A stretch of 64,000 nucleotides of DNA from an uncultured Gammaproteobacteria bacterium (GCA_964522405.1 CAZFTR010000003.1:35711-99710), one strand, 5' to 3'. Counted from the stretch's first letter, positions 9,610 to 50,300 are shown. Numbers and translations are program-made. The notes: a model not told the origin generated them from the letters alone.

Positions 9610-9790
9610 AATAATTTTTTTGAAAAACTAAGACCGTTAATCCATTGTATCACAGAACTTGATAACCCAAAATGTTCTGAATAAATAAAAAGTGAGTAAG
9701 ATGTGGAAAGGCTGTGGATTGTGTGGATAATTATTTAATGAAAAGAGATTTTTTTATTTAAATTTAGTGCTATTTCGGAAATAAAAAAAC
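9610..9790. promoter_or_regulatory. Candidate oriC core upstream of dnaA: DnaA-box cluster plus AT-rich unwinding stretch
   Basis: Perfect TGTGGATAA at 9722-9730. Adjacent CTGTGGATT (9712-9720) and ATGTGGAAA (9701-9709). These are followed by an AT-rich tract (GATTTTTTTATTTAAATTTAG...). Confidence 0.6.
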
Positions 9791-9848
9791 CGCCAATCCT
9801 CCTGTTTAAATTATGGTTTTTCATAAGCTAAACAGGCGGGCGGTTCTT
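9785..9848 (-). terminator. Long imperfect hairpin followed by a T-run on the minus strand; terminator for the GC-rich PGBD gene
   Basis: Minus-strand read: GAACCGCCCGCCTGTTTA...TAAACAGGAGGATTGGCGGTT then TTTTTTTATTT. Confidence 0.5.
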
Positions 9849-9931
9849 CATGAACTTTTCACCTTGGGGGGTGGCTGAATCAGCCGTAGGAAGGTGGGGT
9901 GTGTGGCGGGTGTGAGGGTTGAGGGTCAGCT

Positions 9932-10312
9932 CTAGTAGAGCAGTTCGGGCTCCGGGTAGAAGCCGTCCTCGCAGACCAGGGCGATCAGCGCCAGCTTGGT
10001 CGCGTCGTTGAACTCGCCATCGACCTGGACCTGCTCGCTCTCCTCGCTACCGTGGAGGATGAGGGCGGTCTGGAGCAGGCGCACGTCCCAGCCGGCGTCC
10101 TTCGGGTACATGACCTCGGCCCGGTACATCTGGTTGATGGTGGGCTCGTTGATCTCACCGGTGATCTCGAACTCGTCGTTGTCCTCCTGGTAGCTGCTCA
10201 GGGCCTGCCGAGTGCAGGGACCGAGCTCGCCATCGATCAGCAGCTCGCCGTCGGCGTCGTAGCCCTTGAGGGTCAGGAAGGCCTGGACCTGTCGGATCAG
10301 TTTGACATTCAT
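9932..10312 (-). CDS. Small protein with two peptidoglycan-binding (PGBD/PG_binding_1-like) repeats; gene is strongly GC-rich relative to its surroundings
   Basis: Repeats VQAFLTLKGYDADGELLIDGELGPCTRQALSSYQ and LLQTALILHGSEESEQVQVDGEFNDATKLALIAL. GAGGAG Shine-Dalgarno upstream. GC-rich codon third positions. Confidence 0.55.
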   Translation of the reverse strand: MNVKLIRQVQAFLTLKGYDADGELLIDGELGPCTRQALSSYQEDNDEFEITGEINEPTINQMYRAEVMYPKDAGWDVRLLQTALILHGSEESEQVQVDGEFNDATKLALIALVCEDGFYPEPELLY

Positions 10313-10394
10313 CTTGGGAACACTCCTCAGTGGTACCTGGCTATGGCCGGTACCTTCAAAAGTTCAAAATTAGTTATATCATTATTTTTTGGTC

Positions 10395-10423
10395 TTGACA
10401 AGTTTAAAGACTTTTAGTATAAT
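10395..10423 (+). promoter_or_regulatory. Sigma-70 consensus promoter TTGACA-17-TATAAT for the rpmH-rnpA-yidD operon
   Basis: Exact consensus hexamers with 17-nt spacer, about 70 nt upstream of the rpmH ATG. Confidence 0.65.
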
Positions 10424-10494
10424 TTTTGCACTATTCCTTTTAGTTTTGGTCTGGCTGGCCACAAGCTAGAAATTTCGAAAAAACTGATAAATAT

Positions 10495-10671
10495 ATGCCG
10501 AAAAGAACTTATCAACCAAAGAAGCGTAAAAGAGCTAAAACTCATGGTTTTTTTGCTAGAATGGCTACAAAGACTGGACGTAAGCTTCTTAAGAGAAGAA
10601 GAGCAAAGTCTAGAAAACAACTTACTGTAAGTGATGAAAAGAAAGGAAAACGCTTGAGAAAAACTAGATAA
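10495..10671 (+). CDS. rpmH: 50S ribosomal protein L34, with a roughly 13-aa basic C-terminal extension; absent from the ORF track because it is only 58 codons long
   Basis: Hand translation: [58 protein letters not shown]. Canonical L34 core. Conserved position before rnpA. Confidence 0.9.
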
Positions 10672-10749
10672 TTAGCTAAAATTAGCAGAAAATCTCGCCT
10701 AGGCGAGATTTTTGTGTTATAATATGCTTGCTGTTTGTTAATATTTTCT

Positions 10750-11127
10750 ATGATCCCCAAAGAAAATCGTCTAAAACATATGAAGGATTTTGATATTCTC
10801 TGGAAAGAGGGTAATTTTGTAAATTCCAAATATCTCTCAGCAAAGGTTTGGAAAATAGAGCCTGAGAAGTATGAAAGGCGTGGTTATTCAGTAGAGGATC
10901 TTAAAATTGGCTTTGTTGTGGGAAAAAAAGTTCATAAAAGTGCTGTAAAGCGTAACAAAATCAAGCGTCAGATGCGTGAAGTTGTGCGATTGCTCTTAAA
11001 GAGTGATAAGTTGAATCCTGGGTTTATGCTTGCTTTTACTGCAAAACCAGGTGTAGTTGGTGCTGAGTATGAGGAAATTAGTCAAAATACTGTTGATATT
11101 TTGAAAAAAGCAAGGATTTTGAGATAA
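10750..11127 (+). CDS. rnpA: RNase P protein component
   Basis: IPKENRLKHMKDFD N-terminus and RNR-like motif AVKRNKIKRQMRE. Position between rpmH and yidD. The ORF-track start at 10735 is probably 5 codons too long. Confidence 0.85.
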   Translation: MIPKENRLKHMKDFDILWKEGNFVNSKYLSAKVWKIEPEKYERRGYSVEDLKIGFVVGKKVHKSAVKRNKIKRQMREVVRLLLKSDKLNPGFMLAFTAKPGVVGAEYEEISQNTVDILKKARILR

Positions 11128-11139
11128 TTTGGCTAGTTT

Positions 11140-11415
11140 ATGCGAAGAATATTAAAATATCCACGAAAACCAGCACTTTTTTTAATAAGGGTTTATCAGA
11201 AATTCCTTTCACCTGATCATGGGCCTCTTAGGAATAAGTATCCTTATGGGTACTGCAAGTATTATCCTTCCTGTAGCCAGTATAGTTATGAAATTATTGA
11301 AAAAAAAGGTTTGGTTGTAGGTGTACCAAAATCTGTTTGGAGAATTCTGCGCTGCAATCCCTTTTCTGAGGGTGGGATTGATGAGCCTTATGAAAAAGAA
11401 AAAACTGACTGTTAG
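11140..11415 (+). CDS. yidD: Membrane protein insertion efficiency factor YidD
   Basis: YQKFLSP...CKYYPSCSQYSYEII...RILRCNPFSEGGIDEP matches the YidD signature. yidC, which normally follows, is not present. Confidence 0.85.
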   Translation: MRRILKYPRKPALFLIRVYQKFLSPDHGPLRNKYPYGYCKYYPSCSQYSYEIIEKKGLVVGVPKSVWRILRCNPFSEGGIDEPYEKEKTDC

Positions 11416-11426
11416 TCAGTTTTTAG
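11403..11426 (+). terminator. Hairpin AACTGAC-TGTTA-GTCAGTT plus a T-run, overlapping the yidD stop
   Basis: Read directly from sequence. Confidence 0.55.
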
Positions 11427-11645
11427 TTAGGGTTGTCATCAGCGATCGGAACACCTACGAAGTCCTGTCGCTCGCGAGCGACAGGACGAAGTAAGGGGTG
11501 AAGTGGAGAGGCCCCTTTCAATATGGTGAACGAATCGATTAAATGTTACTTTGATTATATAGAAAGGGATCCCTCGGCTTCATTTTTCTTTCAGAAAATT
11601 CCGCTCGGGATGACAGTTTATCCCCTTTTTTCCTTTTATGATTTA

Positions 11646-11873
11646 TCAACCATGAAGTTTAATAGTTTTCAATCTCGAAGTTTTTCCTCTTACTATTTCA
11701 ATTTTAGATTTCGGCATTTTCCAGTTCTTACTTAAAAATTGAATAAGAGATTTATTTGCTTCTCCATGAGTTGGAGGAGCTTTTAATTTTACTTTAATCG
11801 TCCCATCTTCCATTTCTCCAACAATTTCATTTTTAGAAGATCGAGGAATTAATTTTATTTTAATTAGTTTCAT
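11646..11873 (-). CDS. YggU/DUF167 (UPF0235) family small protein
   Basis: KVKLKAPPTHGEANKSLIQFLSK...IEIVRGKTSRLKTIKL matches the DUF167 signature. Confidence 0.75.
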   Translation of the reverse strand: MKLIKIKLIPRSSKNEIVGEMEDGTIKVKLKAPPTHGEANKSLIQFLSKNWKMPKSKIEIVRGKTSRLKTIKLHG

Positions 11874-11964
11874 AAGTTTTATTTCACTTTAAATCATAAT
11901 ATAAAATTAACAAAAATAAAACCACTCTTGCATAAGAGTGGTTTAGAAAATATTTTTTTAGTTT

Positions 11965-16228: not shown

Positions 16229-16628
16229 AATAAAAACGCCCCGATGGTCAATCGGAGCGCGTTTGCTGCTGAAGGGTGGCGGGGCTCGGAGAGTCCCGCC
16301 GACGAGTCCTGATGGTCGGCTGCTGGAACAGCCAACCGGATCTCGCCGCCCACTCAGCGCAGCGCGCAGCTCAACGAGGGAAGAGACCCCTCGCAGGCCA
16401 TCGGCACCTGAAGACCCAGGCGCGTAGCACACCGTTAGCCGCTTTGTGGACATCGTCCATTAAAGCACACTTTCTGAGTCTTGTCAAGCAGTTGCGCGCC
16501 TCACCGCTGCCCTCGACAGGCGGCAAAGGAGGACGCAATGCGCTCATCGTCACCGCCCGAACTTCGTCGTCAACCACCAGGCCCTCTGCCTGAGCTTCGC
16601 TTCAGTCCTGAAGATGAGGCTCTTTAAT
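16229..16628 (+). ncRNA. Candidate structured RNA 'element A': GC-rich, non-coding-looking, paralogous to element B at 28971-29215; family not identified
   Basis: No credible ORF of 60 aa or more. Preceded by a -10-like TAAATA and bounded by the polA terminator and a 20-bp inverted-repeat terminator. Its 5' 80 nt align with element B with compensatory hairpin changes. Strand is inferred from promoter and terminator placement. Confidence 0.45.
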
Positions 16629-16650
16629 ATTGTCAGGATGGTTATAAAGT

Positions 16651-18591: not shown

Positions 18592-18807
18592 CTACATGGA
18601 GGTGAAGATATGCCCCCGGAAGTCTTCAACTGCCATGGTGCGGACCGAAGTCCAGCCGATGTATGAGAGATGGACGTGGGGACGTCCCCCAAATTCGAAT
18701 TGGACATCCGGGCGAGCGATCCTCTCCTCGATTTCTTCCCTGGAGTCCAAGAGCGCGACCTGAACCACCTTGCGACCCTTGAGTCTCGGGTGGTCAACGA
18801 TTCTCAT
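18592..18807 (-). CDS. Hypothetical 71-aa protein encoded in a GC-rich segment; no family recognised
   Basis: Only protein-like frame in the GC-rich block 18470-18810. The other frames translate to Arg/Ser/Pro-rich junk. A pseudoknot-like repeat and a hairpin terminator lie just downstream on the minus strand. Confidence 0.3.
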   Translation of the reverse strand: MRIVDHPRLKGRKVVQVALLDSREEIEERIARPDVQFEFGGRPHVHLSYIGWTSVRTMAVEDFRGHIFTSM

Positions 18808-18958
18808 AGCCCCTCCTCTAGGCGCGTATTTAAGGAATAGTTAATCAAATAGGTAAGTTTTTGTCAAACAAAAAATTCCTATTTTGTGAAAGGAATTTTT
18901 TGCTATCTTTTTTGTACAAAAAAGGGAATGCCGACTTTGTGAGGAGTGCCGGCAACTC

Positions 18959-19441
18959 CTACCAGGGAAGCTTGAACGAGATGGTCGGCTTGAAGGCCAG
19001 AGACCAAGGACCGTCGACCAGCTTTCCCACTCCGAAGAGGAAAAGCAGGGAGGTCGTCTCGTTGATCTTGACGCCCGGGGTGACGGACAGTCCGATCAAA
19101 TGCTTCCACTCGTCGTTGTAGGGAGGGGTGGGTTCGTAGAGCAGGGTGATGGAGAGGAGGCTCTGCTCGGAGAGCTTAACCACTGGGCCAGTGAAGACAC
19201 GCGGGTTAGGTTTCAGTGCTGTCGTCGGGATCGAGATCCCGATTTCCGAGTGCCAGCCCAGTCCCTCGACCACCGGGAAGGCCACTCCGACGCCGAGCAC
19301 GGTTTTGCTCGGCAGAAACTTGGCGCCGTCGTCGGGGAAGGCCACGGCCCAGCTCTGGCCTGCGCCGATGCGGAAGGTCTGGGCGTTGGCAGTGTTGTAG
19401 AGGGGGGTGAGGATGGACAGGATCAGGATCAGGTTTTTCAC
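18959..19441 (-). CDS. Secreted beta-strand-rich protein with signal peptide and C-terminal aromatic residue (OmpW/PagL-sized beta-barrel-like); GC-rich
   Basis: Signal peptide MKNLILILSILTPLYNTANA. Alternating hydrophobic pattern. Ends ...FKLPW. Start overlaps the upstream gene by 4 nt (ATGA). Confidence 0.45.
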   Translation of the reverse strand: MKNLILILSILTPLYNTANAQTFRIGAGQSWAVAFPDDGAKFLPSKTVLGVGVAFPVVEGLGWHSEIGISIPTTALKPNPRVFTGPVVKLSEQSLLSITLLYEPTPPYNDEWKHLIGLSVTPGVKINETTSLLFLFGVGKLVDGPWSLAFKPTISFKLPW

Positions 19442-19713
19442 TTGGTTTCTCCTTCAAGTCCTTTAGTGAGCCAGTCGAAGAGCTTCACTCTGAGTCGCGA
19501 CTTGGCGAAAAACCAGCCTGCGCATGCGATGATGCCGGCCATGAAACCAGACCCCAGCATGTGGAACTTCAGGTTCTGCTCAGGGTTGAAACCCAGAAGG
19601 TCGCTACAGTAGTTGAACAAGTCGATCATGGCGTAGGCGTACAGGGAGACGCACCACAGAATCAACACGCCAGAGAGACCCCAGATCGGAATCACCAGGA
19701 TTTTTTTGACCAC
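19438..19713 (-). CDS. Small two-TM membrane protein (91 aa), first gene of a GC-rich two-gene cassette
   Basis: Two hydrophobic helices (ILVIPIWGLSGVLILWCVSLYAYA and GSGFMAGIIACAGWFFA). Translationally coupled to 18959..19441. Confidence 0.4.
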   Translation of the reverse strand: MVKKILVIPIWGLSGVLILWCVSLYAYAMIDLFNYCSDLLGFNPEQNLKFHMLGSGFMAGIIACAGWFFAKSRLRVKLFDWLTKGLEGETK

Positions 19714-30830: not shown

Positions 30831-31817
30831 TTATTTTATATATTCAAATTGTAATTTTGAAACTAAATCTGTTTTTTTAATCTCAGATTCTATTTTCATC
30901 TCAAGTCTGCGCTCAAGACCGTGAGCAAGTGATTCAGAAATTTTTAATAATTTATTTTGATCCATTTCCAGTTGATCTAAGTTCTCGAGAGCTTTTTTTC
31001 CTGTTTCTTTTGAAATAAAATCCTTTGGAAAATCAATTAATAGTCCTCTACCAAAGTTTTTCATAATATGTGCTGCTGTGATTGATAGATTCATAGCATG
31101 AGGACTGTTATGTTGGCACTGCAAATCAGCTTCTAGAAGTTCTGTATTTAGTTTTGAGGTTAAAATCTTGTCTGAAATATTTTTTCCTGTTTCATTTATG
31201 TCTGTTGCTAGATTTATATTAATTCTTCTGTGAGAACAAGAGCTTCCAGTGTATTGTTTTATGTAGTTTTCAAGATTTCCTGCGCTTGGAATGACTGGAT
31301 CAGGACCTAGATGATTTACTTTTGTTTGTATTACCGGATCATATGGTGACATGGAGTGGATATCTAGCCAAACTCCTCCTGGCTTCAAACTTTTTATAGT
31401 TTTAAAAATATTCTTCATGGTTTTTTTGTGAAGTATTCTAAGTTGCTTTAGAATTTTTTCATTTTTTCTAAAATCAAAAACATTTCTAATTGCTTTTTCA
31501 GAACTTATTCTTCCGAGATCAAGTATTCCGCGTGGAATTTGTACATCAAATATATCTACTCGTATTTTCTTTTTGGAATTTTCTACTAATTTCTTTGCGG
31601 TTGTGTGGGCAAGTTCTCTTGTTCCAAAATCATATTCTATTTTAAGAAATTTTTTAAAAGTACCTTCAGAATCCTGAAGCGCTTCCCGAAGCAGGGGATT
31701 ATTTTCATAAAAATCTATTCCATCATCTGAATGCAGACATAGCAAAAGGCAATCAGGTCGATCAGATTTGTAATTTGAATAAGTTGTAATTTTAAATTTT
31801 TCTGTTTTTATTTTCAT
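30831..31817 (-). CDS. Hypothetical protein, possibly N-formylglutamate-amidohydrolase (FGase)-like amidohydrolase/deacylase
   Basis: LLLCLHSDDGIDFYENNPL and GGVWLDIHSMSPYD resemble the FGase-family HxG...DxHSM pattern. AT-rich. Immediately downstream of the ATP-grasp gene on the same strand. Confidence 0.35.
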   Translation of the reverse strand: MKIKTEKFKITTYSNYKSDRPDCLLLCLHSDDGIDFYENNPLLREALQDSEGTFKKFLKIEYDFGTRELAHTTAKKLVENSKKKIRVDIFDVQIPRGILDLGRISSEKAIRNVFDFRKNEKILKQLRILHKKTMKNIFKTIKSLKPGGVWLDIHSMSPYDPVIQTKVNHLGPDPVIPSAGNLENYIKQYTGSSCSHRRININLATDINETGKNISDKILTSKLNTELLEADLQCQHNSPHAMNLSITAAHIMKNFGRGLLIDFPKDFISKETGKKALENLDQLEMDQNKLLKISESLAHGLERRLEMKIESEIKKTDLVSKLQFEYIK

Positions 31818-31912: not shown

Positions 31913-33223
31913 TCAGTTGTTGATCAGTGTGCGGAACTCGTCCCGCGCAGCGCTCGCAGCGATTTGCGAGGTAGCCACGACTGCGAACGAGAACCAGCCC
32001 TTGAGCTCAGGATCAGGTGGCGAGACGATGATGATCTTCACCTTCGCGCAGTCAGTCTCTTCCTGAACTCGGCGTTCGGCCTGCTCGGCAAGAGCGTTCA
32101 ACTCACTGGCGGAGAAGACCTTACCCTTGATGGGCGGATCTTCGTCGTACTCAGCGAAGAGTTGGCTCTTGTTCGTTTCCCAGAGCTTGGCCAGTTGCTC
32201 CAGGATGTTGAGGATCACGCTCGTGAGCAGCACGCGCGCGTTGCTCTCGAAGTAGAAGCGAACTCTTTCTCCGAGTGCTGCATCCACGTCGGCGTCACCG
32301 CGGTAGCCCATCTCGTGCAGATGCCAGCCGTAGGCGAGCGCTTCCTCGATGACTTGCTCGAGACCGGGGATGGCAGGGCAAGGCACGGTGCAGCCCACCG
32401 ACTCAAGGCCATTGAGTCGACGGAGCGTGGTCGCCACGATCTTCGGACCTGCGTCCATGATCTCCATGACCACCGAGATGGCCTTCAGACCCTGGTAGAG
32501 ATCGTAGAGGTGTGGCTCGACCAGTACTGCGACCGGGTCAGCGATCTTGGCGATCGCTTTTCGCAGCTCTGCTTCGGTCGCGCAGAGCGCGTTGCCCAGG
32601 CCACCGGCCGAAACGATCTCGCGCAGAACCGCGCGCACGGCCCTCGCCAGCTCCTTGCGCGCCCGATCGAAGATCTGCTTGCGATCAGTGATGGCGGTCG
32701 GTGCGTTGGGTAGCGGAAGTCCATGCTCGTCACAGTAGAGCGTGAACCTCTGCTTGTCGTTGCTGCGTTGCGGTAGGCCTGCCTTGACCAGGTCTTCGGG
32801 GGTGCCGAGCACCTCGAGACCGAGTTCATTCCCCAGCTTGCAGACCGATGCGTGTTGCATGAGTGGTCCCAGCTTGTAGCCCTGGCGGCCGAGCTCGGTG
32901 ATCTCCCGACAAAGTCGCGGACTCCTTCGAATTTCTGCCACGAAATCAAAGGGTGAGCCCGGCATGTGGTCGAGGTAGAGCGGCTTGACCCGGAAGCCCA
33001 TGATCGAGGCGTGGTAGTCGAGGAGCTCCTCAATACCTTCGGTCGGCGGCAAGATGATGGTGTCGCCCGGCCCGATGCGCCACAATCCACGCAAGACCAG
33101 TTTGGCGCATTTGGCAGCGACCTTGCCCTCAGCCGGTTTGTTGAAAAACCTGCCGTAGTTCTCAACTGCGATAACTTTCATTTCCCCCTGCTCCAAGTGC
33201 GTGGATTCAAAAAAACTTCTCAC
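31913..33223 (-). CDS. ATP-grasp-fold carboxylate-amine ligase-like protein; GC-rich gene
   Basis: C-terminal catalytic block GYRGDADVDAALGERVRFYFESNARV parallels the D-Ala-D-Ala ligase/RimK pattern GxRGxARVDF....E(V/I)N..PG. The plus-strand ORF 31859..32713 is an antisense shadow. Confidence 0.5.
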   Translation of the reverse strand: MRSFFESTHLEQGEMKVIAVENYGRFFNKPAEGKVAAKCAKLVLRGLWRIGPGDTIILPPTEGIEELLDYHASIMGFRVKPLYLDHMPGSPFDFVAEIRRSPRLCREITELGRQGYKLGPLMQHASVCKLGNELGLEVLGTPEDLVKAGLPQRSNDKQRFTLYCDEHGLPLPNAPTAITDRKQIFDRARKELARAVRAVLREIVSAGGLGNALCATEAELRKAIAKIADPVAVLVEPHLYDLYQGLKAISVVMEIMDAGPKIVATTLRRLNGLESVGCTVPCPAIPGLEQVIEEALAYGWHLHEMGYRGDADVDAALGERVRFYFESNARVLLTSVILNILEQLAKLWETNKSQLFAEYDEDPPIKGKVFSASELNALAEQAERRVQEETDCAKVKIIIVSPPDPELKGWFSFAVVATSQIAASAARDEFRTLINN

Positions 33224-33545
33224 CCACGCTGTGCGGGTAATTTTTTTGCTCTATTGCCTAATAAAACAAAAAACTTACCCGCATGGATAAGAAGTTTGTT
33301 CCAAAAATCTATTCAAAAGACTTTGGCTTATCTTTCCCAGCAAGGGTTGGAAGGAGCACCTTGCTCAGATTGAGTAGGTTGCTAGAGAGTCACAGGGCCA
33401 ATTCCCTCATCTCTTCTTGATATTTCTAAATTGTCTAAAAGATCTGTTATTAGAATAATATATTTTTGGAAAATTGTCAAATTCGGTTTTTTGGTTGACC
33501 TAGAGAAAAATATCTGCTATAATCTTTCTACTTTGTTTAAATAAC

Positions 33546-45079: not shown

Positions 45080-45811
45080 TTGCATATGTTAAAAAAACTA
45101 ATTTATATAATTCAATTCCGAACAGATGCTTCAGAAGAGCATGAAAAAAAATGTTTCAATGAGCAATTAAGTGATTATCAAGATAATCTAGTTTTTATAA
45201 ATGCTGTGAATCAAGAACTTTCACTTGAAAAAATGCCCAATGTAGCTGCAATTATTCTTGGCGGAAGCGGTCAATTCTATGCCTCAAAAGATGATCAAAG
45301 AGCTCCTCATAAAAAAACTCTTGATTTTATAGATCGAGTTTTGGAGGCAGAGATCCCGCTGCTTGGAATATGTTATGGAATGCAAATGTTATGTGTGAAA
45401 TACGGATCTAAAATGGTGGATGATAAAAAATATCATGAAAATGGTAGTTTTTTGGTGGAGAAGTTGGCAGCGGCAGATAGCGATCCTTTGCTTGGTAAAA
45501 TGCCACAAGAATTTTTTGGTCAATTTGGTCATAAAGAGGCTGCTATAAACATTCCTGATGATTTAATATGTCTTGCCAGATCAGAGCGGGTTGATTGTCA
45601 GGCTGTTCGTGTGAAAGGTAAGGATGCTTGGGGTGTTCTTTTCCATGCAGAATTAAATTATCAGCATCTTAGAGAAAGGACTATGATTTTTCCTGACTAC
45701 GCAAGTGATCCGCAAAATCTTGAAGAGTCAATGAAGAATTTTCAAGAGGCTCCGGAGTCAAATGATTTCCTTAGATTTTTTGTTAAGTTGGCTTTGGATA
45801 AAAATCATTGA
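45080..45811 (+). CDS. Class I glutamine amidotransferase-like protein (standalone GATase1 / gamma-glutamyl hydrolase-like)
   Basis: Nucleophile elbow LLGICYGMQ and a His in VLFHAELN. No synthase domain is fused. Confidence 0.65.
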   Translation: MHMLKKLIYIIQFRTDASEEHEKKCFNEQLSDYQDNLVFINAVNQELSLEKMPNVAAIILGGSGQFYASKDDQRAPHKKTLDFIDRVLEAEIPLLGICYGMQMLCVKYGSKMVDDKKYHENGSFLVEKLAAADSDPLLGKMPQEFFGQFGHKEAAINIPDDLICLARSERVDCQAVRVKGKDAWGVLFHAELNYQHLRERTMIFPDYASDPQNLEESMKNFQEAPESNDFLRFFVKLALDKNH

Positions 45812-46071
45812 CAAGAGTAATTTTTTTTGATAGCTTGTAGTTAAGTATGAGTAATATAAAAACAAACAACTTCTTTTTCTTTTTTGGAGATTCCGCTAGG
45901 CGGTAAGTCTTTTTCAAAAGATTTGTTCACCGCCAAAAGCGGTGTTTTTTTCTACTCAATTTTGGTTTGACAACGGTATTTAGGTAAATATCATTGTCAG
46001 TCCAAAAGCATTTGCCTAGGACTAACTGCTCTTTCTTTTTTTGTTTTTTCTTCGGCACAGGGGTCTATTCC

Positions 46072-47052
46072 ATGTTCAAAAAGACGGCGCTTCTCGCCAC
46101 TCTCAAGGTCCTCCAGGCGTATGCTGCCAAGCAGGCTGTCGATCAGATGTTCGAGGCACAGAGGCGTGCCTTCGACAAGATGAGCGACTTCCAACGGCGT
46201 CTCGCCAGGCGTGCCTTCATCTACAGGCGTCGGGCTATGTACGCCAGGAACTGGCACAACCCTCGTACTGTGGGGTGCGAGCTCGAACTCGTCATGTGTC
46301 GTCTTTCCGAGGACGGCAGCTTCTACGAGATCCATGGCAAGGTCGCGGAGCTGGTCGAGAAGATCGCAGCTCAGCATCCGAAGCTGGCCAAGTTCTTCGA
46401 CATCGAGTTCTCGGCGCATCAGATCGAGATCAGAACCGGAGTGCACATCTGCATTAACCAGATGCTCGACGAGCTGTTCGAGCTGATCGGCATCGCTCGA
46501 AAGGTCGCGGCTGAGCTGGGCTACGAACTCCACGCGGTTGAGTACATCGACTGCGAGTACAAGTTCGCTGCCCTCGACGTCACGCCGGGAGAAGTCGAGC
46601 CTGCCTACCTGGCCTTTGCCATGCAGAACCCGAGCAAGATCGACGCCATGTGCCGCGTGGCAGCGTTCCAGGTCTCGTTCGGACTCTGCAGCGAGCGCGA
46701 GGCCATCGACGTGCACAACCGGCTCATCGAGGCTCTGCCTGAGCTCATGCTTCGCTGGATGGACAGCGTTCGCAAGAAGCTCTTCGGACAGGTCATCGCG
46801 CCTGGGGTCTTCGACACGGGTCCGCTTCAGAACCTGGGCGAGCTCTTCGACCGCATGGCTGAGGCTGGATGTCTCGGTGGTCGCAAGGGGCGTTACTACC
46901 CGGCGATTCGGCTCCAGGACAAGATCCCGGTGGCTGAAGTGCGGATCGGCGGCGCCACCGACGATCGGGAGCAGATGTTCCGGATGATCTGCGAGTTCTT
47001 CAAGGTCGCATTCCCGAGAGAGGCTCCGCCTCTCCGTCACATCTTCTGGTAG
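46072..47052 (+). CDS. GCS2/YbdK-like carboxylate-amine ligase-related protein (short paralog, tentative); strongly GC-rich
   Basis: GC-rich third codon positions on the plus strand. TVGCELELVMCRL resembles the YbdK 'TLGIELEM' ligase motif. The first 26 codons of the ORF track (FFFCFFF...) are AT-rich non-coding, so the start is placed at 46072. The minus-strand ORF 45997..47040 is an antisense shadow. Confidence 0.4.
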   Translation: MFKKTALLATLKVLQAYAAKQAVDQMFEAQRRAFDKMSDFQRRLARRAFIYRRRAMYARNWHNPRTVGCELELVMCRLSEDGSFYEIHGKVAELVEKIAAQHPKLAKFFDIEFSAHQIEIRTGVHICINQMLDELFELIGIARKVAAELGYELHAVEYIDCEYKFAALDVTPGEVEPAYLAFAMQNPSKIDAMCRVAAFQVSFGLCSEREAIDVHNRLIEALPELMLRWMDSVRKKLFGQVIAPGVFDTGPLQNLGELFDRMAEAGCLGGRKGRYYPAIRLQDKIPVAEVRIGGATDDREQMFRMICEFFKVAFPREAPPLRHIFW

Positions 47053-47094
47053 GAGGAAGGGGGGGAGGTCGGCGTGTTCCCCACCACGCTGACC

Positions 47095-47136
47095 AAACTC
47101 TTTTGCATATAAGTTTTATATGCAAAAGAGTTTTTT
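47095..47136 (+). terminator. Strong terminator: 18-bp stem AAACTCTTTTGCATATAA-GTT-TTATATGCAAAAGAGTTT plus T-run
   Basis: Read directly from sequence. Confidence 0.75.
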
Positions 47137-47573
47137 CCACAAAATTTATTGACTGATTTTGTATATATGCTAATCTATAATTAGTATGAATCTAAAAAAT
47201 AGTCAAAAATTCATTATTCTGCCAGTGACTCCCTCCTAATTTGGCGGTTTTTTAGAACATATTTACCTCAACCCGCCAAAAAGGCGGGATTTTATTTATT
47301 TGGCTAATTTAAGATAAATCCCTTGACTAAACCATCTAAATTTGCTAATTTAAATTGTTAAATAGTGTTAAGATTAGAAGTTGATAAATAATATGATTAT
47401 TTTACAACTTTTGTTCTTTACAGTTGATGCTAGAAATTGTCCTTGTCTATTGATTTGCTGAATTTTCAGTGCATCAATAGGCAAGGACAGCTCTGTCCGG
47501 GCCGGTACGGGCATGACGTCCAAGCTGGCTTTGCCAGACAACCACCACGAAGCAGAGGGAGTCGAGAAGGCAA

Positions 47574-48950
47574 TTGGCCACGAAGCGACATCGAAACAAT
47601 TACGAGCGGGTTCGCAACAGACTCGCTGAACTCTTCACCAACGTCCCACGTGTTGCACTGGGACAGCGATTGACGCTGGGGCTTGAGGAGGAGTTCCAGT
47701 TCGTTCAGTCGACCGGCCTTCCCGGCCAGGCCTACCCCGTCATCGAGGGTGTCAGCCGGATGGAGGGCTACGAAGCTGTCTACGACGACATCTTCACTGA
47801 CGAGCTGATAGCTGCCCGTCATCCGGTTTTCGGGGGGCTGGGCTGGGATGCCGGCTACTCTCTGGTCGAGTGGGATTCCCCGCCTGTCACTCGAGTACAG
47901 ACGGCCGACGCTCTGCGCAACCAGATGCTCTGCACGGTGCTGCCGCTCGCAGGCCGAAACAGGCTGACGGTGGCGGGTATCGGCAGACTGCCTCTCGGCA
48001 AGGGCAGATCTGAGAGCTGGAAGCGCAAGGGTCGCTATGAGACCATGCGTTCCTGCTACGGGCCGGAGATCAACGCCGCTACCATGTGTGCGGCTCGCCA
48101 GGTCTCGGTCGGCACGCGGAGTATGCGTCACCAGATCAAGGTGACCAACACCTTCCTGGCGCTCTCGGGCGCCATCACGGCCATGACCGCCAACTCTCCG
48201 ATTCACTGCGGTCGAGCGCACAAGAAGATGCTGGCTTCGCGTCAGTTCTTCTGGTCCTCGTTCGCTGAGGCGAGTCGGGTCGGAGTCCCCAACCGACCCT
48301 TCGGCGGTCTCGGCTCTCTCCTCGACTGGCTGCTCGGCGAGAAGCTGCTCTTCTACAAGAAGGATGGCCAGTACGTCAAGTGCGGTCAACTCTTCTGGAG
48401 GGCGGCGGCTCGCTACGTCAACGACGACGAGATGTTCACGCAGATGGCACTGCTCCACATCGGCACCTGCTGGCAGGAGGCGCGGGCACGCATTCTCAAC
48501 GGTACGGTCGAGTTCCGCTCCATGTGCCAGCAGCCTCAGTCCACTGGTGCTGCCTGCGAGGCTCTGATCGTCGGACTGGCTGAGAACGTCGGCGAGGCCT
48601 GGGATCTGGTTCTGACCCACACCTGGGATCAGTGGCGAGAGAGTCGCGATCGTGGAGCCTGCCTCAGCTTCGGCGCCAAGGTCGGTCGCGAGCCCATGGT
48701 TCGAGTCTGCAACAGCGTGCTCAACGTGGCTGAGCGTGGACTCAAGATGCGTAAGTTGCGCGAAGAGCGCTATCTGCGCCCCTTCCGCGAGCGCGTCCTG
48801 CGCCGTCGGGCCCCGGCTCTCGACCAGCTTCGTTCCTGGGGCAAGGGTGGGCGCCAGCAGCTGATCCAGGACTCGGCCTACGAGATTGAGGCGTTGCCCA
48901 GCTACAGCAGCTACCGCGACCAGCTCGAGGCCATGGCCAGCTGCGCCTAG
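47574..48950 (+). CDS. Glutamate-cysteine-ligase family 2 (GCS2/YbdK-type) carboxylate-amine ligase; strongly GC-rich
   Basis: LTLGLEEEFQFVQSTGL matches the GCS2 N-terminal signature. GC-rich third codon positions. The annotated start is TTG, and the true start may be the in-frame TTG just before TLGLEEEF. The minus-strand ORF 47466..48974 is an antisense shadow. Confidence 0.55.
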   Translation: MATKRHRNNYERVRNRLAELFTNVPRVALGQRLTLGLEEEFQFVQSTGLPGQAYPVIEGVSRMEGYEAVYDDIFTDELIAARHPVFGGLGWDAGYSLVEWDSPPVTRVQTADALRNQMLCTVLPLAGRNRLTVAGIGRLPLGKGRSESWKRKGRYETMRSCYGPEINAATMCAARQVSVGTRSMRHQIKVTNTFLALSGAITAMTANSPIHCGRAHKKMLASRQFFWSSFAEASRVGVPNRPFGGLGSLLDWLLGEKLLFYKKDGQYVKCGQLFWRAAARYVNDDEMFTQMALLHIGTCWQEARARILNGTVEFRSMCQQPQSTGAACEALIVGLAENVGEAWDLVLTHTWDQWRESRDRGACLSFGAKVGREPMVRVCNSVLNVAERGLKMRKLREERYLRPFRERVLRRRAPALDQLRSWGKGGRQQLIQDSAYEIEALPSYSSYRDQLEAMASCA

Positions 48951-49208
48951 CATCAACGACCGAATCGCCGTCATCAGGGAGACGGCGTGTAGGGAGGGAA
49001 TTGGGCGGAGTGTGTGCGTGTCATGCGTAGCACACCGCCCCGGTTCTTGTGCAAATAAGTTTATTGTTTGTAAAAGAAACTTTAATAGTGAGTAATCAAT
49101 AGTGTTTAAGCACTATTGATTTTTTTATTTAATAAATCTTAATCAGTAACAAAATTGCCAGTAAGTTTTTTTTGTGTTAATCTTCACCTCATAAATTATA
49201 AAATTCTT

Positions 49209-50300
49209 ATGGAAAAAATTGATGAAATGGTAAAAATAACTTCTGATCTAATTAGAATTAGATCTACTCATGACAGACAAGATCAAATTGCCAAGTGTGT
49301 TGACTATGTGGCTGATTTTTTTAAAGAAACTGAATTAAAAGTTGAAAGATTTGAATCAGATGGTGTTGCTTCTCTTGTGGTAACCAAAAATACAAATTCA
49401 CCAACTGTTTTTTTATGTGGGCATGTTGATGTTGTTGATGGTCAAGAAAAACAATTTCTGCCAGAAATTGAAGAAGATAAAATATTTGGACGTGGAGCTA
49501 TGGATATGAAGAGTGGAGTTGCTATTATGATGATTCTTATGAAGGAGCTCTCAACAACTGAACATAATTTTGGATTGATGATTGTTGGAGATGAAGAAAT
49601 CGGCGGGGCCAATGGTTCAGCCTTTCTACTAGAGAAAGGCTATAGATGTAAGTCTGTGGTAATTGCTGACGGCGGTGAAAAAATTAATAGAATAATTGAA
49701 AAGGAGAAGGCCTCTTTGAGAATTAAATTAACTGCCAGTGGAAAATCTACACATAGTTCAAGACCATGGCTTGGCATAAATGCCAATGAAATATTAATTG
49801 AAGCTATTCAGAAAATTAAAACTTTATTTATAAATCTTGATGAGCATCCAGAGGATCACTGGGTAAAGACTCTTAGTGTCGGCAAAATAAATGGAGGCAT
49901 TGCTTATAATCAAGTTCCTGCAAGCGCTCAGGCAGAGTGTAATATTCGTTATACGGAAAATGAGACAAGAGATCAGATTATTTCTTCTATCAAAGCTGTT
50001 TTACCGGAAAATGTTGAAATTGAATATATAGGTATTTGTGACGGGTTTAAACTTGAAAAAGAAGATTCAATGGTTCAGGAATATCAAAAAGCAATAGAAT
50101 CAGTAGGAAAAACCCCTGAATTTCTTAAGACCCATGGTGGATCTGATGCAGGTTATTTTGCTAAATTGGGAATTCCGGTACTTATGAGCCAGCCTGAAGG
50201 TGCTAATCTTCATGCTGATGGTGAGTATGTTTATATATCTTCTATGGTTGATTATTATAAAATGTTGCGCAGTTTTTTAAATTCTGTAGCTTTAAAATAG
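49209..50300 (+). CDS. M20-family metallopeptidase / deacylase (ArgE/DapE-like)
   Basis: GHVDVV, GRGAMDMKSG and DEEIGG metal-binding motifs. Dimerisation-domain layout. Confidence 0.75.
   Translation: MEKIDEMVKITSDLIRIRSTHDRQDQIAKCVDYVADFFKETELKVERFESDGVASLVVTKNTNSPTVFLCGHVDVVDGQEKQFLPEIEEDKIFGRGAMDMKSGVAIMMILMKELSTTEHNFGLMIVGDEEIGGANGSAFLLEKGYRCKSVVIADGGEKINRIIEKEKASLRIKLTASGKSTHSSRPWLGINANEILIEAIQKIKTLFINLDEHPEDHWVKTLSVGKINGGIAYNQVPASAQAECNIRYTENETRDQIISSIKAVLPENVEIEYIGICDGFKLEKEDSMVQEYQKAIESVGKTPEFLKTHGGSDAGYFAKLGIPVLMSQPEGANLHADGEYVYISSMVDYYKMLRSFLNSVALK

What the first reader, a model, noticed from the sequence alone, without database searches (positions are those of the whole stretch)
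45080..50300. Gene neighbourhood of GATase1 - two GCS2/YbdK-type carboxylate-amine ligases - M20 peptidase: candidate gamma-glutamyl-amide / peptide-tag metabolism module
A standalone class I glutamine-amidotransferase-like hydrolase (45080-45811, GICYGMQ elbow) is followed by two tandem GC-rich GCS2-family ligases. One is 326 aa with a TVGCELELVM motif. The other is 458 aa with a canonical LTLGLEEEFQFV motif. An M20 deacylase/peptidase follows at 49209-50300.

The GS-like ligase plus GATase1-like hydrolase pairing is the logic of gamma-glutamylation pathways, such as PuuA/PuuD. It also appears in the amidoligase neighbourhoods proposed to build peptide-like metabolites or protein tags.

The two ligases differ compositionally from their AT-rich neighbours. 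Strong terminators and a 17-bp inverted repeat (47438-47489) at the AT/GC junction suggest each is an independent transcription unit.
Basis: partly seen in the sequence, partly recalled or inferred. Interest (0 to 1): 0.65.

Follow-up and report, generated by a model that had tools for sequence, protein, structure and literature searches.

The report
GC-rich ligase genes behind leader-peptide attenuators
In an AT-rich, small-genome (Patescibacteria-type) bacterium, two strikingly GC-rich genes for glutamate-cysteine-ligase-like enzymes sit between a glutamine-amidotransferase-like gene and an M20 hydrolase gene; the cluster recurs in relatives, and each ligase gene follows a short leader-peptide/terminator switch that should turn it on when a hydrophobic amino acid runs short.

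Summary
All four + strand genes are real:
- GATase class I, 45086-45811.
- Ligase A, 46072-47052: a weak but above-threshold GCS2 match, with no detectable homologue.
- Ligase B, 47574-48950: a GCS2 subfamily with 439 representatives, and a plant-GCL-like fold.
- M20 hydrolase, 49209-50300.

The antisense ORFs are by-products of GC-rich codon usage.

The module reading is partly supported. In 7 of 9 lineages examined, a B-family ligase lies next to a GATase1-like or an M20 hydrolase gene. One diverged syntenic relative (L020) carries tandem GC-rich GCS2 genes, then M20, rpsF, ssb and rpsR.

1. The "strong terminators" upstream of A and B are the terminator halves of leader-peptide attenuators. 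Each has a promoter, a 17-19-codon ORF with a hydrophobic codon run (FFFFF for A, FIILPV for B), and an antiterminator segment at the stop codon. The same design occurs upstream of ligase genes in three other genomes.
2. The GC3 anomaly (0.78-0.80 against 0.21-0.27) is shared with the syntenic relative, so a single recent transfer does not explain it.

The chemistry is inferred, not shown. My best guess is amino-acid-specific, possibly gamma-glutamyl, dipeptide formation and re-hydrolysis, analogous to hmrA/ldmS.

The parts
45086..45811 (+). Class I glutamine-amidotransferase-like protein (241 aa from the ATG; a TTG at 45080 is also possible). Native AT-rich composition.
   Evidence: Pfam GATase 8e-15, GATase_3 6e-7, Peptidase_C26 6e-7. 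NCBIfam PRK09065 2.6e-33, below its cut-off. Cys96/His187/Glu189 are invariant in the alignment with orthologues that sit beside B-family ligases. Closest solved structure is GMP synthase subunit A, 1e-12.
45809..45951 (+). Leader unit 1, a putative Phe attenuator. It has a -35 TTGACA at 45809-45814 and an sORF at 45847-45906 (MSNIKTNNFFFFFGDSARR, Phe codons 45871-45885). The antiterminator segment GGCGG at 45899-45903 lies in the last codons. The terminator is at 45928-45944, followed by T7.
   Evidence: Sequence. Terminator scan. Antiterminator -16.7 against terminator -8.7 kcal/mol. Shuffle p = 0.0009. One of only two convincing hits of this design in the whole window. The peptide resembles the L015/L019 leaders (MENNISQNNFFFGFWFY...).
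46072..47052 (+). Ligase A: a 326-aa, minimal, highly divergent GCS2-like protein. GC 0.60, GC3 0.80.
   Evidence: Pfam GCS2 9.8e-6, above the gathering score. hhalign against the B family gives E 2e-5, probability 77%, covering only the N-terminal ~60% of the family. It keeps E70, E72, E119, Q200, R234, R280, E289 and R291, which match the B-family invariants. No homologue found among 5.8e9 proteins. The single-sequence model failed, pLDDT 40.
47067..47140 (+). Terminators of gene A: a GC hairpin at 47067-47094, then a perfect 18-bp hairpin at 47095-47133 followed by a T-run.
   Evidence: I3, 100% complementary.
47149..47296 (+). Leader unit 2, a putative Ile/Leu/Phe attenuator. It has a -35 TTGACT at 47149-47154 and a -10 TAATCT at 47171-47176. 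The sORF is at 47186-47239 (MNLKNSQKFIILPVTPS). The antiterminator segment GGCGG is at 47243-47247. The terminator is at 47272-47288, followed by a T-rich tail.
   Evidence: Antiterminator -9.6 against terminator -11.5 kcal/mol. Shuffle p = 0.0001. Found by the window-wide scan.
47438..47492 (+). Long hairpin in the 5' region of B, at the AT/GC junction: a 17-bp outer stem and a 6-bp inner stem, with no T-run after it.
   Evidence: The whole 47134-47590 region folds with z = -8.0. Function not established.
47574..48950 (+). Ligase B: a 458-aa, plant-GCL-like GCS2-family carboxylate-amine ligase. TTG start, SD GAGAAGG at 47564-47570. GC 0.63, GC3 0.78.
   Evidence: Pfam GCS2 5.3e-9. 439 family representatives at E<=1e-3, top hits 35-39% identical over the full length. 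AF2 model pLDDT 96.2. Best fold matches are 2gwc (TM 0.80-0.84), then YbdK 1r8g. All family-invariant residues are present: E99, R154, Q176, R223, W300, R304, E313, R315.
49094..49128 (+). Intrinsic terminator after B: a 12-pair hairpin followed by a T-run.
49209..50300 (+). M20 metallohydrolase of the ArgE/DapE/LysK type, 363 aa. Native AT-rich composition.
   Evidence: Pfam M20 1.4e-25 and M20_dimer 1.5e-17. NCBIfam DapE-ArgE subfamily 3.3e-52, below its cut-off. PDB 2rb7 5e-60, function unknown. Metal-ligand motifs HVDVV, GAMDMK, GDEEIGG and NLHADGE are visible in the translation. An orthologue 41% identical sits in the same position in L020.

Best explanation
This is a conserved Patescibacteria-type gene cluster. 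GCS2-fold, ATP-dependent carboxylate-amine ligases (A, a minimal form; B, plant-GCL-like) are paired with two amide hydrolases: a class I GATase-like protein and an M20 metallohydrolase. Each ligase gene is switched by its own ribosome-mediated transcription attenuator.

How the attenuator is arranged (shown at sequence level). A sigma-70-like promoter drives a 17-19-codon leader ORF containing a run of hydrophobic codons: Phe x5 before A, and Phe-Ile-Ile-Leu-Pro-Val before B. A short GC segment at or just after the leader's stop codon is a copy of the 3' arm of the downstream intrinsic terminator. It can therefore pair with the terminator's 5' arm to form an antiterminator.

How the attenuator should work (inferred by analogy with pheL, leuL and ilvL). 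A ribosome that reaches the stop codon masks the GC segment, so the terminator forms and the gene is off. A ribosome stalled 13-18 nt upstream for lack of charged tRNA leaves the segment free, so transcription reads through and the gene is on.

Chemistry (inferred, weakest step). Each ligase joins an acidic amino-acid carboxylate, most likely the gamma-carboxyl of glutamate, to the hydrophobic amino acid sensed by its leader. The GATase1-like (gamma-glutamyl-peptidase-like) and M20 (dipeptidase/deacylase) enzymes reopen such bonds. Together they would give an auxotrophic, host-dependent cell an ATP-driven capture or buffer cycle for scarce amino acids. This is the same logic, and the same unresolved paradox, as the S-box/CodY-controlled hmrA (M20D) and ldmS (L-Asp-L-Met ligase) operon of staphylococci.

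Unexplained. The ligase genes' extreme GC3 is shared with a diverged syntenic relative and has no explanation yet.
For: The genes and families are real.

Neighbourhood conservation:
- GCS2 followed by GATase: L004-6 (Ca. Azambacteria) and L007-9.
- GATase followed by GCS2: L011.
- GCS2 followed by M20: L015/16 and L019 (Patescibacteria, Doudnabacteria).
- L020: GCS2, GCS2, M20, rpsF, ssb, rpsR. This is syntenic with the window (M20 41%, ssb 70%, rpsR 81% identity).

Attenuators:
- Six units in four genomes share the design although their sequences differ.
- Antiterminators fold at -9.6 to -37.9 kcal/mol, terminators at -8.4 to -11.5.
- The chance of the stop-codon-linked complement, as a product over five independent units, is about 3e-12.
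- The hydrophobic run ends 13-18 nt before the antiterminator segment in every unit.
- A scan of the whole window on both strands finds this design before A and B, plus one weak AT-rich case before M20.
- Leader runs are FFFFF, LLLLL, VIVNII and FFxFWFY, like classical pheL/leuL/ilvL leaders (established knowledge).

Precedents:
- A carboxylate-amine ligase beside a GATase-like thiol peptidase was predicted to make glutathione-like peptides (PMC2588565).
- An amino-acid ligase and an M20 peptidase share one operon under a SAM riboswitch or CodY/CymR (PMC9486568).
- In this same window, a third GC-rich ligase-like gene (pre-ATP-grasp domain) lies behind a SAM riboswitch.
Against: - No experiment and no expression data exist. 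Substrates are unknown.
- The leader ORFs lack clear Shine-Dalgarno sequences and start only about 4-13 nt after the predicted transcription start, whereas the ligase genes have good SDs. Their translation is therefore assumed.
- Promoter-like sites also lie downstream of both terminators (45967-45994, 11 of 12 matches; 47368-47397). They could bypass the attenuators.
- For unit 2, the antiterminator is slightly weaker than the terminator, and its hydrophobic run is mixed.
- Three lineages with the GCS2-GATase pair have no such leader.
- A ligase that consumes the scarce amino acid is paradoxical.
- The GATase is more similar to ammonia-donating GuaA-type subunits than to gamma-glutamyl hydrolases.
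- GATase and M20 are seen together only in the window.
- The M20 genes of L015/L019 are only 22% identical to the window's.
- A's assignment rests on weak scores. It lacks the C-terminal domain and the R154/K152/W300 equivalents.
Confidence: 0.42

Rival explanations
1. Two-subunit glutamine-dependent amidotransferase. The GATase hydrolyses glutamine and passes ammonia to the GCS2-fold ligase, which amidates an ATP-activated carboxylate (R-COOH to R-CONH2). M20 is unrelated or acts on the product.
For: The GATase's best matches are true ammonia-donating subunits: GMP synthase subunit A 1e-12, guaA_Nterm 1.8e-18, PRK09065/PRK07567 1e-31 to 1e-33. The Cys-His-Glu triad is intact. GATase and ligase are tightly adjacent and co-directional in L004, L008 and L011. 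GS-fold enzymes use ammonia in glutamine synthetase (established knowledge).
Against: No fused GATase-ligase protein appears among the 150 best family members. Several lineages have the ligase with M20 and no adjacent GATase. An amidation reaction has no obvious link to Phe/Leu/Ile-sensing leaders. No complex model could be computed.
Confidence: 0.2
2. One reading: a gamma-glutamylation/deglutamylation pathway of the PuuA/PuuD type for an amine, or synthesis of a glutathione-like thiol. The ligases make gamma-glutamyl amides, and the GATase1-like enzyme and M20 remove the group.
For: B's closest structures are gamma-glutamylcysteine ligases. JGI annotates family members as gamma-glutamylcysteine synthetase. 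The ligase plus GATase-like peptidase logic is known.
Against: No oxidoreductase or aminotransferase lies between the glutamylation and deglutamylation steps. The ligases are not GlnA-type. The GATase is not of the PuuD family. The leaders point to hydrophobic amino acids rather than to polyamines or cysteine. No glutathione synthetase is in the cluster.
Confidence: 0.15
3. The short ORFs are precursor or tag peptides (RiPP-like). The ligases modify or conjugate them, and the hairpins set the precursor-to-enzyme stoichiometry.
For: A small ORF with its own promoter and a partial terminator precedes each ligase in several genomes. GS/GCS-fold enzymes can ligate peptides, as PafA does. An MvdD-type ATP-grasp gene with tiny ORFs lies near the pair in L004.
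Against: The peptides share no conserved C-terminus or core. What is conserved is the RNA design: a copy of the terminator arm at the stop codon, and the spacing of the hydrophobic run. Runs of a single amino acid are typical of attenuator leaders.
Confidence: 0.08
4. The two GC-rich genes are recently transferred foreign DNA that landed beside native genes by chance. There is no functional module.
For: GC3 is 0.78-0.80 against 0.21-0.27, and amino-acid composition is shifted as well. A has no detectable homologue. At least three other GC-rich islands lie in the same 64 kb.
Against: B groups with Patescibacteria sequences from conserved loci, not with the GC-rich Rubrobacter-type clade. The diverged syntenic relative L020 has GC-rich GCS2 genes at the same place, with the same leader architecture. 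Hydrolase partners recur. No phage or defence signal was found.
Confidence: 0.12

Closest known systems
Carboxylate-amine ligase (GCS2-sized 'new CAL') with a GATase-like thiol peptidase: neighbourhoods of Iyer, Burroughs and Aravind 2008 (PMC2588565)
   Same: A GS/GCS-fold ligase encoded next to a class I GATase-like protein. It was predicted to make glutathione-like or peptide metabolites rather than protein tags.
   Different: Here the setting is a Patescibacteria-centred subfamily that is plant-GCL-like in fold. There are tandem hyper-divergent paralogues, an M20 partner, leader-peptide attenuators and an extreme codon-composition anomaly. Whether B belongs to their 'new CAL' family was not tested, because their alignment was not available.
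Plant/proteobacterial-type glutamate-cysteine ligase (2gwc) and E. coli YbdK (1r8g)
   Same: Same fold (TM 0.80-0.84 and 0.64/0.81). The Glu triad, Gln and Arg fingers are conserved.
   Different: Only 21-22% identity. All NCBIfam GCL/YbdK models score far below their cut-offs. The substrate is unknown. A lacks the C-terminal helical domain.
hmrA/ldmS operon of Staphylococcaceae: an M20D peptidase and an L-Asp-L-Met ligase under an S-box riboswitch or CodY/CymR (PMC9486568)
   Same: An ATP-dependent amino-acid ligase is paired with an M20 peptidase and induced by limitation of the amino acid it would consume. The physiological paradox is the same.
   Different: LdmS is an ATP-grasp enzyme, whereas A and B are GCS2-fold. 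The control element here is a leader peptide, not a riboswitch (except for the separate ATP-grasp-like island at 31913-33223). The M20 subfamily differs.
Classical ribosome-mediated attenuators (pheL-pheA, pheM-pheST, leuL, ilvL/ivbL, trpL)
   Same: A short leader ORF with a run of regulatory codons, mutually exclusive terminator and antiterminator structures, and a stop codon placed so that a terminating ribosome masks the antiterminator.
   Different: The controlled genes are ligases, not biosynthetic enzymes or tRNA synthetases. The leaders are nearly leaderless and lack a clear SD. The host is a Patescibacteria-type genome, for which I found no report of such attenuators (this absence is weak evidence). 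There are no significant Rfam leader hits.
PuuA/PuuD and related gamma-glutamylation pathways; yeast DUG (Dug2/3 GATase plus Dug1 M20) glutathione degradation
   Same: An ATP-dependent ligase makes a gamma-glutamyl amide, and a GATase-like hydrolase (plus an M20 dipeptidase in DUG) takes it apart (established knowledge; GGP1 papers listed).
   Different: PuuA is GlnA-type and PuuD is C26-type. Dug3 is a class II GATase. Neither family matches best here. No intermediate-modifying enzymes are present.

Membership tests
GCS2 / glutamate-cysteine ligase family 2 (PF04107): gene B | Profile match above the curated threshold | tested here: met
   36.3 bits against a cut-off of 21, E 5.3e-9.
GCS2 / glutamate-cysteine ligase family 2 (PF04107): gene B | GS/GCL fold | tested here: met
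   Model pLDDT 96.2. 2gwc TM 0.80-0.84; 1r8g TM 0.64/0.81.
GCS2 / glutamate-cysteine ligase family 2 (PF04107): gene B | Metal-binding Glu triad and Arg fingers | tested here: met
   E38, E40, E99, Q176, R223, R304, E313 and R315 are present and invariant, or nearly so, in the family.
GCS2 / glutamate-cysteine ligase family 2 (PF04107): gene B | Gamma-glutamylcysteine (or any) ligase activity | not testable with these tools
   Needs an enzyme assay. All equivalog models (GshA, EgtA, YbdK) score far below their cut-offs.
GCS2 family: gene A | Profile match above the curated threshold | tested here: met
   25.6 bits against 21, E 9.8e-6, but covering only profile positions 22-151 of 291.
GCS2 family: gene A | Full catalytic core and fold | tested here: inconclusive
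   Keeps E70, E72, E119, Q200, R234, R280, E289 and R291. Lacks the equivalents of K152, R154, N207 and W300, and the C-terminal domain. hhalign probability 77%. The structure model failed.
Class I glutamine amidotransferase (PF00117) | Profile match and the Cys-His-Glu triad | tested here: met
   55.4 bits against 22.8. C96, H187 and E189 are invariant in A3.
PuuD / peptidase C26 gamma-glutamyl hydrolases | Best match to the C26/PuuD family rather than to synthase-associated GATases | tested here: not met
   Peptidase_C26 scores only 6.4e-7, against GATase 8e-15 and PRK09065 2.6e-33. PDB best hits are GMP synthase subunit A.
Peptidase M20 (ArgE/DapE/LysK type) | Catalytic and dimerisation domains, and metal ligands | tested here: met
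   PF01546 90.8 bits and PF07687 63.9 bits. The H-x-D, D, E-E and H motifs can be read in the translation. No equivalog reaches its cut-off, so the specific substrate is unknown.
Leader-peptide (ribosome-mediated) transcription attenuator | A short ORF with clustered regulatory codons upstream of an intrinsic terminator | tested here: met
   Units at 45847-45944 and 47186-47288. The same arrangement occurs in L020 (two units), L015 and L019.
Leader-peptide (ribosome-mediated) transcription attenuator | A mutually exclusive antiterminator whose 5' segment is masked by a ribosome at the leader stop codon | tested here: met
   (combined shuffle p about 3e-12). The spacing is 13-18 nt in all units.
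Leader-peptide (ribosome-mediated) transcription attenuator | The leader ORF is translated (has a ribosome-binding site) | tested here: inconclusive
   There is no clear SD. The ATG lies about 4-13 nt after the predicted start, so translation would be leaderless or short-leader.
Leader-peptide (ribosome-mediated) transcription attenuator | Read-through responds to the charging of the cognate tRNA | not testable with these tools
   Needs Term-seq or in vitro assays.
Horizontally acquired genomic island | Deviant composition | tested here: met
   GC3 0.78-0.80 against 0.21-0.27. Two-fold codon families are reversed (TTC 0.95-1.00 against 0.11).
Horizontally acquired genomic island | Absent from relatives, or closest homologues lie in a distant donor lineage | tested here: not met
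   The syntenic L020 carries GC-rich GCS2 genes at the same locus. B clusters with Patescibacteria loci. No donor was found.

The most novel reading that the evidence does not exclude
Patescibacteria of this clade keep a family of rapidly diverging GCS2-fold enzymes, each dedicated to one hydrophobic amino acid and switched on by its own leader-peptide attenuator. They also keep an ATP-grasp counterpart behind a SAM riboswitch. The extreme GC3 of exactly these genes would then not be a transfer scar. It would be maintained, by selection or by biased gene conversion, because the messages must be made and survive when ribosomes are stalled. Possible benefits are resistance to AU-directed RNases, to Rho, or to competition for the heavily used AT-ending codons. 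Codon composition would then act as a regulatory device for a starvation-response amino-acid capture system in organisms that cannot make amino acids.
Probability: 0.12. Interest if true: 0.85.

Novelty: new variant of a known kind. Interest (0 to 1): 0.6.

Why it matters
Patescibacteria (CPR) are a large, mostly uncultured part of bacterial diversity. They lack amino-acid biosynthesis, and how they sense and cope with amino-acid shortage is largely unknown.

If the leaders work as predicted, three things follow:
- They would be evidence for classical ribosome-mediated attenuation in this group.
- They would assign a physiological cue (Phe, Leu, Ile/Val limitation) to an uncharacterised GCS2 subfamily with hundreds of members.
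- They would link that subfamily to two hydrolase partners, which gives concrete substrates to test.

The cluster also repeats the unexplained pattern of the hmrA/ldmS operon, where a ligase that consumes a scarce amino acid is induced by its shortage. That suggests a more general dipeptide-buffering strategy.

Finally, genes with GC3 near 0.8 inside genomes with GC3 near 0.25, conserved between diverged relatives, are an unusual compositional puzzle. They also mislead gene callers: one public assembly calls the antisense ORF.

Tried and rejected
1. Minus-strand coding. The 347-aa and 502-aa antisense ORFs have no Pfam hits. GC3 peaks in the + frame. The ORFs exist because TTA, CTA and TCA codons are absent from A and B. 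They are broken in the equally GC-rich genes C and L020_X.

2. GC-rich structured RNA instead of genes. There are no Rfam hits and codon periodicity is strong.

3. Chimeric assembly. Four independent contigs are identical across the junctions.

4. Recent transfer from a non-Patescibacteria donor, such as a host. No close homologue turned up in the 5.8e9-protein word search, the GTDB genomes or the JGI metagenomes. The tree and source names place B among Patescibacteria.

5. Phage or defence origin. IMG/VR and PADLOC gave nothing.

6. Depletion of the sensed amino acid in the ligases. A has more Phe (6.7%) than native proteins (4.4%). L020_B1 has more Leu.

7. Isoacceptor-charging as the sole cause of the codon bias. 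Two-fold families read by a single tRNA are reversed too.

8. Structure of A. The single-sequence AF2 model was unusable, so no fold search was run.

9. The search for related loci with the broad B-family alignments failed because no block was conserved enough. The metagenome scan gave one distant locus.

10. The window's genome could not be named. A composition match to Minisyncoccus (36.6% GC) is not evidence. The SRA run numbers are not in the literature library.

11. The Iyer et al. 2009 amidoligase paper (PMC3268129) is not held.

Full report
**1. What is in the sequence**

The window is about 35% GC and carries housekeeping genes such as PilM/PilC/PilB, PolA and rpsF-ssb-rpsR. Relatives recovered through its proteins are named Patescibacteria, Ca. 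Azambacteria, Ca. Doudnabacteria or Saccharibacteria.

Between pilB and rpsF lie four + strand genes:
- a class I GATase-like gene (45086-45811);
- ligase A (46072-47052, 326 aa);
- ligase B (47574-48950, 458 aa);
- an M20 hydrolase gene (49209-50300).

- GATase, 8e-15.
- GCS2, 9.8e-6 for A and 5.3e-9 for B, both above the gathering score.
- Peptidase_M20, 1.4e-25, plus the dimerisation domain.

The long antisense ORFs hit nothing.

A and B are 60-63% GC with GC3 of 0.80 and 0.78. The native genes have GC3 of 0.21-0.27. The antisense ORFs arise because A and B contain no TTA, CTA or TCA codons. Other equally GC-rich genes do break them. Four independent public contigs match the window exactly across the AT/GC junctions, so this is not an assembly chimera. 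One of those assemblies calls the 502-aa antisense ORF instead of B.

**2. The proteins**

Ligase B:
- It has no close relative. The best hits are 35-39% identical.
- It belongs to a well-defined family: 439 representatives at E<=1e-3, and 36 at E<=1e-30.
- With that family as the alignment, the AlphaFold model is excellent (pLDDT 96.2).
- The model superposes best on plant glutamate-cysteine ligase 2gwc (TM 0.80-0.84), then on YbdK.
- All family-invariant residues are present.

Ligase A:
- It is an orphan by sequence search.
- A profile comparison aligns residues 62-294 with the N-terminal 60% of the B family (E 2e-5, probability 77%).
- It keeps the Glu-x-Glu pair, the third Glu, the Gln, three Arg and the strand Glu. 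It lacks several other invariant positions and the C-terminal helical domain.
- Its single-sequence model failed.
- I regard A as a probable, minimal GCS2-fold enzyme whose activity is uncertain.

GATase. The Cys-His-Glu triad is intact. The protein is most similar to synthase-associated GATases: PRK09065 2.6e-33, guaA N-terminal domain 1.8e-18, and archaeal GMP synthase subunit A 1e-12. It is less similar to PuuD/C26.

M20. It has the metal-ligand motifs. Its best solved relative is a protein of unknown function (2rb7, 5e-60), followed by DapE enzymes.

**3. Is it a module?**

I looked at nine lineages carrying a B-family gene.

| Lineage | Arrangement |
|---|---|
| L004-6 (Ca. Azambacteria), L007-9 | Ligase immediately followed by a GATase orthologous to the window's (33-37% identity, shared IQFRTD.S..HE..CF motif) |
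| L011 | The GATase precedes the ligase |
| L015/16, L019 | The ligase is followed by an M20 gene, of a different subfamily (22% identity) |
| L017, L021/22 | Neither hydrolase is adjacent |
| L020 | See below |

L020 is the most informative.
- The stretch I hold of its 57-kb contig (bases 1-6797) reads: the end of a GC-rich ORF, GCS2 (455 aa, 31% identical to B), GCS2 (471 aa, here called X, a third very divergent paralogue), M20 (41% identical to the window's), rpsF, ssb (70%), rpsR (81%), and a 154-aa gene (51%).
- This is the window's locus in a diverged genome.

So a hydrolase partner is adjacent in 7 of 9 lineages, and the arrangement of tandem ligases then M20 then rpsF is inherited. 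A carboxylate-amine ligase next to a GATase-like thiol peptidase has been described before. It was interpreted as synthesis of glutathione-like peptides rather than protein tagging (PMC2588565). The specific PuuA/PuuD analogy is not: the ligase family is wrong, the GATase is not of the PuuD type, and there are no intermediate-modifying enzymes.

**4. The regulatory elements**

Each is preceded by a sigma-70-like promoter with a perfect or near-perfect -35 box and by a short ORF.

| Unit | Leader peptide | Position or downstream gene |
|---|---|---|
| w1 | MSNIKTNNFFFFFGDSARR | 45847-45906, before A |
| w2 | MNLKNSQKFIILPVTPS | 47186-47239, before B |
| L020-1 | MNTAYNNVRALLLLLTSE | before the B orthologue |
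| L020-2 | MKNHGRNVIVNIISRHTRWF | before X |
| L015 / L019 | MENNISQNN(L/F)FF(D/G)FWFYNRLSP(A/V) | before the B-family gene |

Features shared by all six units:
- A 4-6-nt GC segment inside the last codons, or within 8 nt after the stop codon, copies the terminator's 3' arm. It can therefore pair with the 5' arm.
- The resulting antiterminators are as stable as the terminators or much more so: -9.6 to -37.9 against -8.4 to -11.5 kcal/mol.
- The placement is very unlikely by chance. Shuffle p values are 0.0001-0.13 per unit, with a product of about 3e-12 over five independent units.
- The hydrophobic run always ends 13-18 nt before the antiterminator segment.

A scan of the whole window on both strands for this design returns only the two ligase leaders and one weak AT-rich case before M20.

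This is the anatomy of classical ribosome-mediated attenuation, as in pheL, leuL and ilvL. A ribosome at the stop codon masks the antiterminator, so the terminator forms. A ribosome stalled at the hungry codons leaves it free, so transcription reads through.

Caveats:
- The leaders have no clear Shine-Dalgarno sequence and would be nearly leaderless.
- Promoter-like sites also lie downstream of both terminators.
- Unit 2 is energetically marginal.
- Three lineages lack such leaders.
- Rfam does not recognise the units.

The 17-bp inverted repeat at 47438-47492 is a separate, very stable hairpin in B's long 5' region. It has no T-run, and its role is open.

**5. Function**

Shown at sequence level:
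- two GCS2-fold enzymes;
- two hydrolases with intact active sites;
- recurrent linkage between them;
- attenuator-like leaders with Phe, Leu or Ile/Val runs.

Inferred:
- The ligases are induced when the corresponding charged tRNA is scarce.
- Each probably ligates an acidic amino acid (by analogy with GCL, the gamma-carboxyl of Glu) to that hydrophobic amino acid.
- The GATase-like and M20 enzymes would cleave such bonds.

The closest documented parallel is the staphylococcal hmrA/ldmS operon. There, an M20D Met-X dipeptidase and an ATP-grasp L-Asp-L-Met ligase are controlled by CodY/CymR or an S-box riboswitch. The authors note the same paradox: a ligase that consumes the limiting amino acid is induced by its limitation (PMC9486568).

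A serious rival is that the GATase is the ammonia-donating subunit of a two-subunit amidotransferase. Its sequence affinities favour this reading. I cannot decide between the two without biochemistry or a complex model.

**6. The composition puzzle**

- The GC3 excess is not general to the family. B-family genes match their genomes in L004, L008, L015, L017, L019 and L022, and are slightly higher in L011. They are strongly deviant only in the window (0.78 against about 0.23) and in the syntenic L020 (0.73 against 0.32-0.44).
- A rough neighbour-joining tree puts both genes in one Patescibacteria clade, not with the GC-rich Rubrobacter-type members.
- The bias affects two-fold codon families read by one tRNA (TTC 0.95-1.00 against 0.11 native) and also amino-acid composition. 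It looks like a general GC pressure rather than isoacceptor choice.
- The sensed amino acids are not depleted in the proteins.
- The flanking leaders, promoters and terminators are AT-rich and native-like in both genomes.

A single recent transfer does not fit two diverged genomes. An ancient transfer should have ameliorated. Repeated precise replacement of the coding sequences alone seems unlikely. Maintenance by selection or biased gene conversion is possible but untested. I leave this unexplained.

**7. Context in the window**

The same theme appears elsewhere. A third GC-rich gene (31913-33223, minus strand, GC3 0.75) has a weak pre-ATP-grasp domain hit and lies directly behind a SAM riboswitch. 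A fourth island carries small GC-rich ORFs. In a Saccharibacteria relative (L012), the GATase orthologue is preceded not by a GCS2 gene but by a 430-aa protein. That protein has weak similarity to the ATP-grasp-like protein (E 3e-5 for the pair).

**8. Verdict**

- The family assignments and the ligase-plus-hydrolase logic are of a known kind.
- New here are the amino-acid-specific leader-peptide attenuators in front of GCS2 paralogues in Patescibacteria, and the conserved, extreme GC3 of exactly these genes.
- Function and mechanism remain predictions.

Noticed in passing
window 31913-33426 (minus strand), and 30831-31817: A third GC-rich gene (436 aa, GC3 0.75) has a weak Pre-ATP-grasp domain hit (PF18604, 4e-4, below cut-off). 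It sits directly downstream of a SAM riboswitch (RF00162, 62 bits, 33325-33426). An AT-rich 328-aa gene with no family hit follows it. This is the same theme as the finding: a GC-rich ligase-like gene behind a sensor related to an amino acid.
   Followed up: partly
window 18592-19713 (minus strand): A fourth GC-rich island has native-looking promoters and terminators. It carries ORFs of 91 aa (membrane-like), 160 aa (signal peptide, GC3 0.83, ends ...FKLPW) and 71 aa (GC3 0.71). None has a family hit.
   Followed up: partly
window 16240-16640: A stretch of about 400 nt at 60-70% GC lies just after polA. It has no codon-position periodicity and no Rfam hit at E<=0.1. The + strand folds with z = -4.8. 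It may be an unrecognised structured RNA.
   Followed up: partly
window 47447-47480 and 49095-49120: The hairpin in B's 5' region and the terminator after B both contain the palindromic core CTATTGAT/ATCAATAG. The 8-mer occurs 8 times in the window against 3.6 expected, and 4 of the 8 are in these two hairpins. The cause could be chance, a shared protein-binding site, or a trace of how the GC-rich segment was inserted.
   Followed up: partly
window 45868-45885 and 46024-46041: The Phe-codon tract of leader 1 (AACTTCTTTTTCTTTTTT) is repeated at 89% identity just upstream of A's ATG. The repeat is in frame with A and reads NCSFFFCFFFG. It could be a second Phe-sensitive element or an alternative N-terminal extension.
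   Followed up: no
window 47227-47235 and 47555-47563: A perfect 9-nt complementarity (GACTCCCTC / GAGGGAGTC) links the last codons of leader ORF 2 with the bases immediately 5' of B's Shine-Dalgarno sequence. The two segments pair in the predicted minimum-energy fold of the 457-nt region (z = -8.0).
   Followed up: no
L012 6620-8720 (Saccharibacteria MAG): The orthologous GATase is preceded by a 430-aa protein with no Pfam hit instead of a GCS2 ligase. That protein shows weak collinear similarity (E 3e-5 for the pair) to the window's ATP-grasp-like protein. This hints that ligases of different folds can partner this GATase.
   Followed up: partly
L010 19-1527 (Logan SRR8146441 contig): The public gene call for this locus is the 502-aa antisense ORF, not ligase B. 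GC-rich genes of this kind are probably mis-annotated in databases.
   Followed up: yes
L004 14819-16519 (Ca. Azambacteria): An MvdD-type ATP-grasp gene flanked by tiny ORFs (46 and 49 aa) lies about 3 kb from the GCS2-GATase pair. It may be a graspetide-like cluster.
   Followed up: no
L020 1-54: The contig starts inside a GC-rich ORF whose last residues (SRERIFEIAHLVSRVIK*) resemble A's C-terminal helix (REQMFRMICEFFKVA). L020 may therefore carry an A-like gene upstream of its two GCS2 genes. The fragment is too short to test.
   Followed up: no
window 9610-11964: A stretch of about 2.3 kb has no ORF of 150 aa or more and locally raised GC (0.44). It has no Rfam hit.
   Followed up: no
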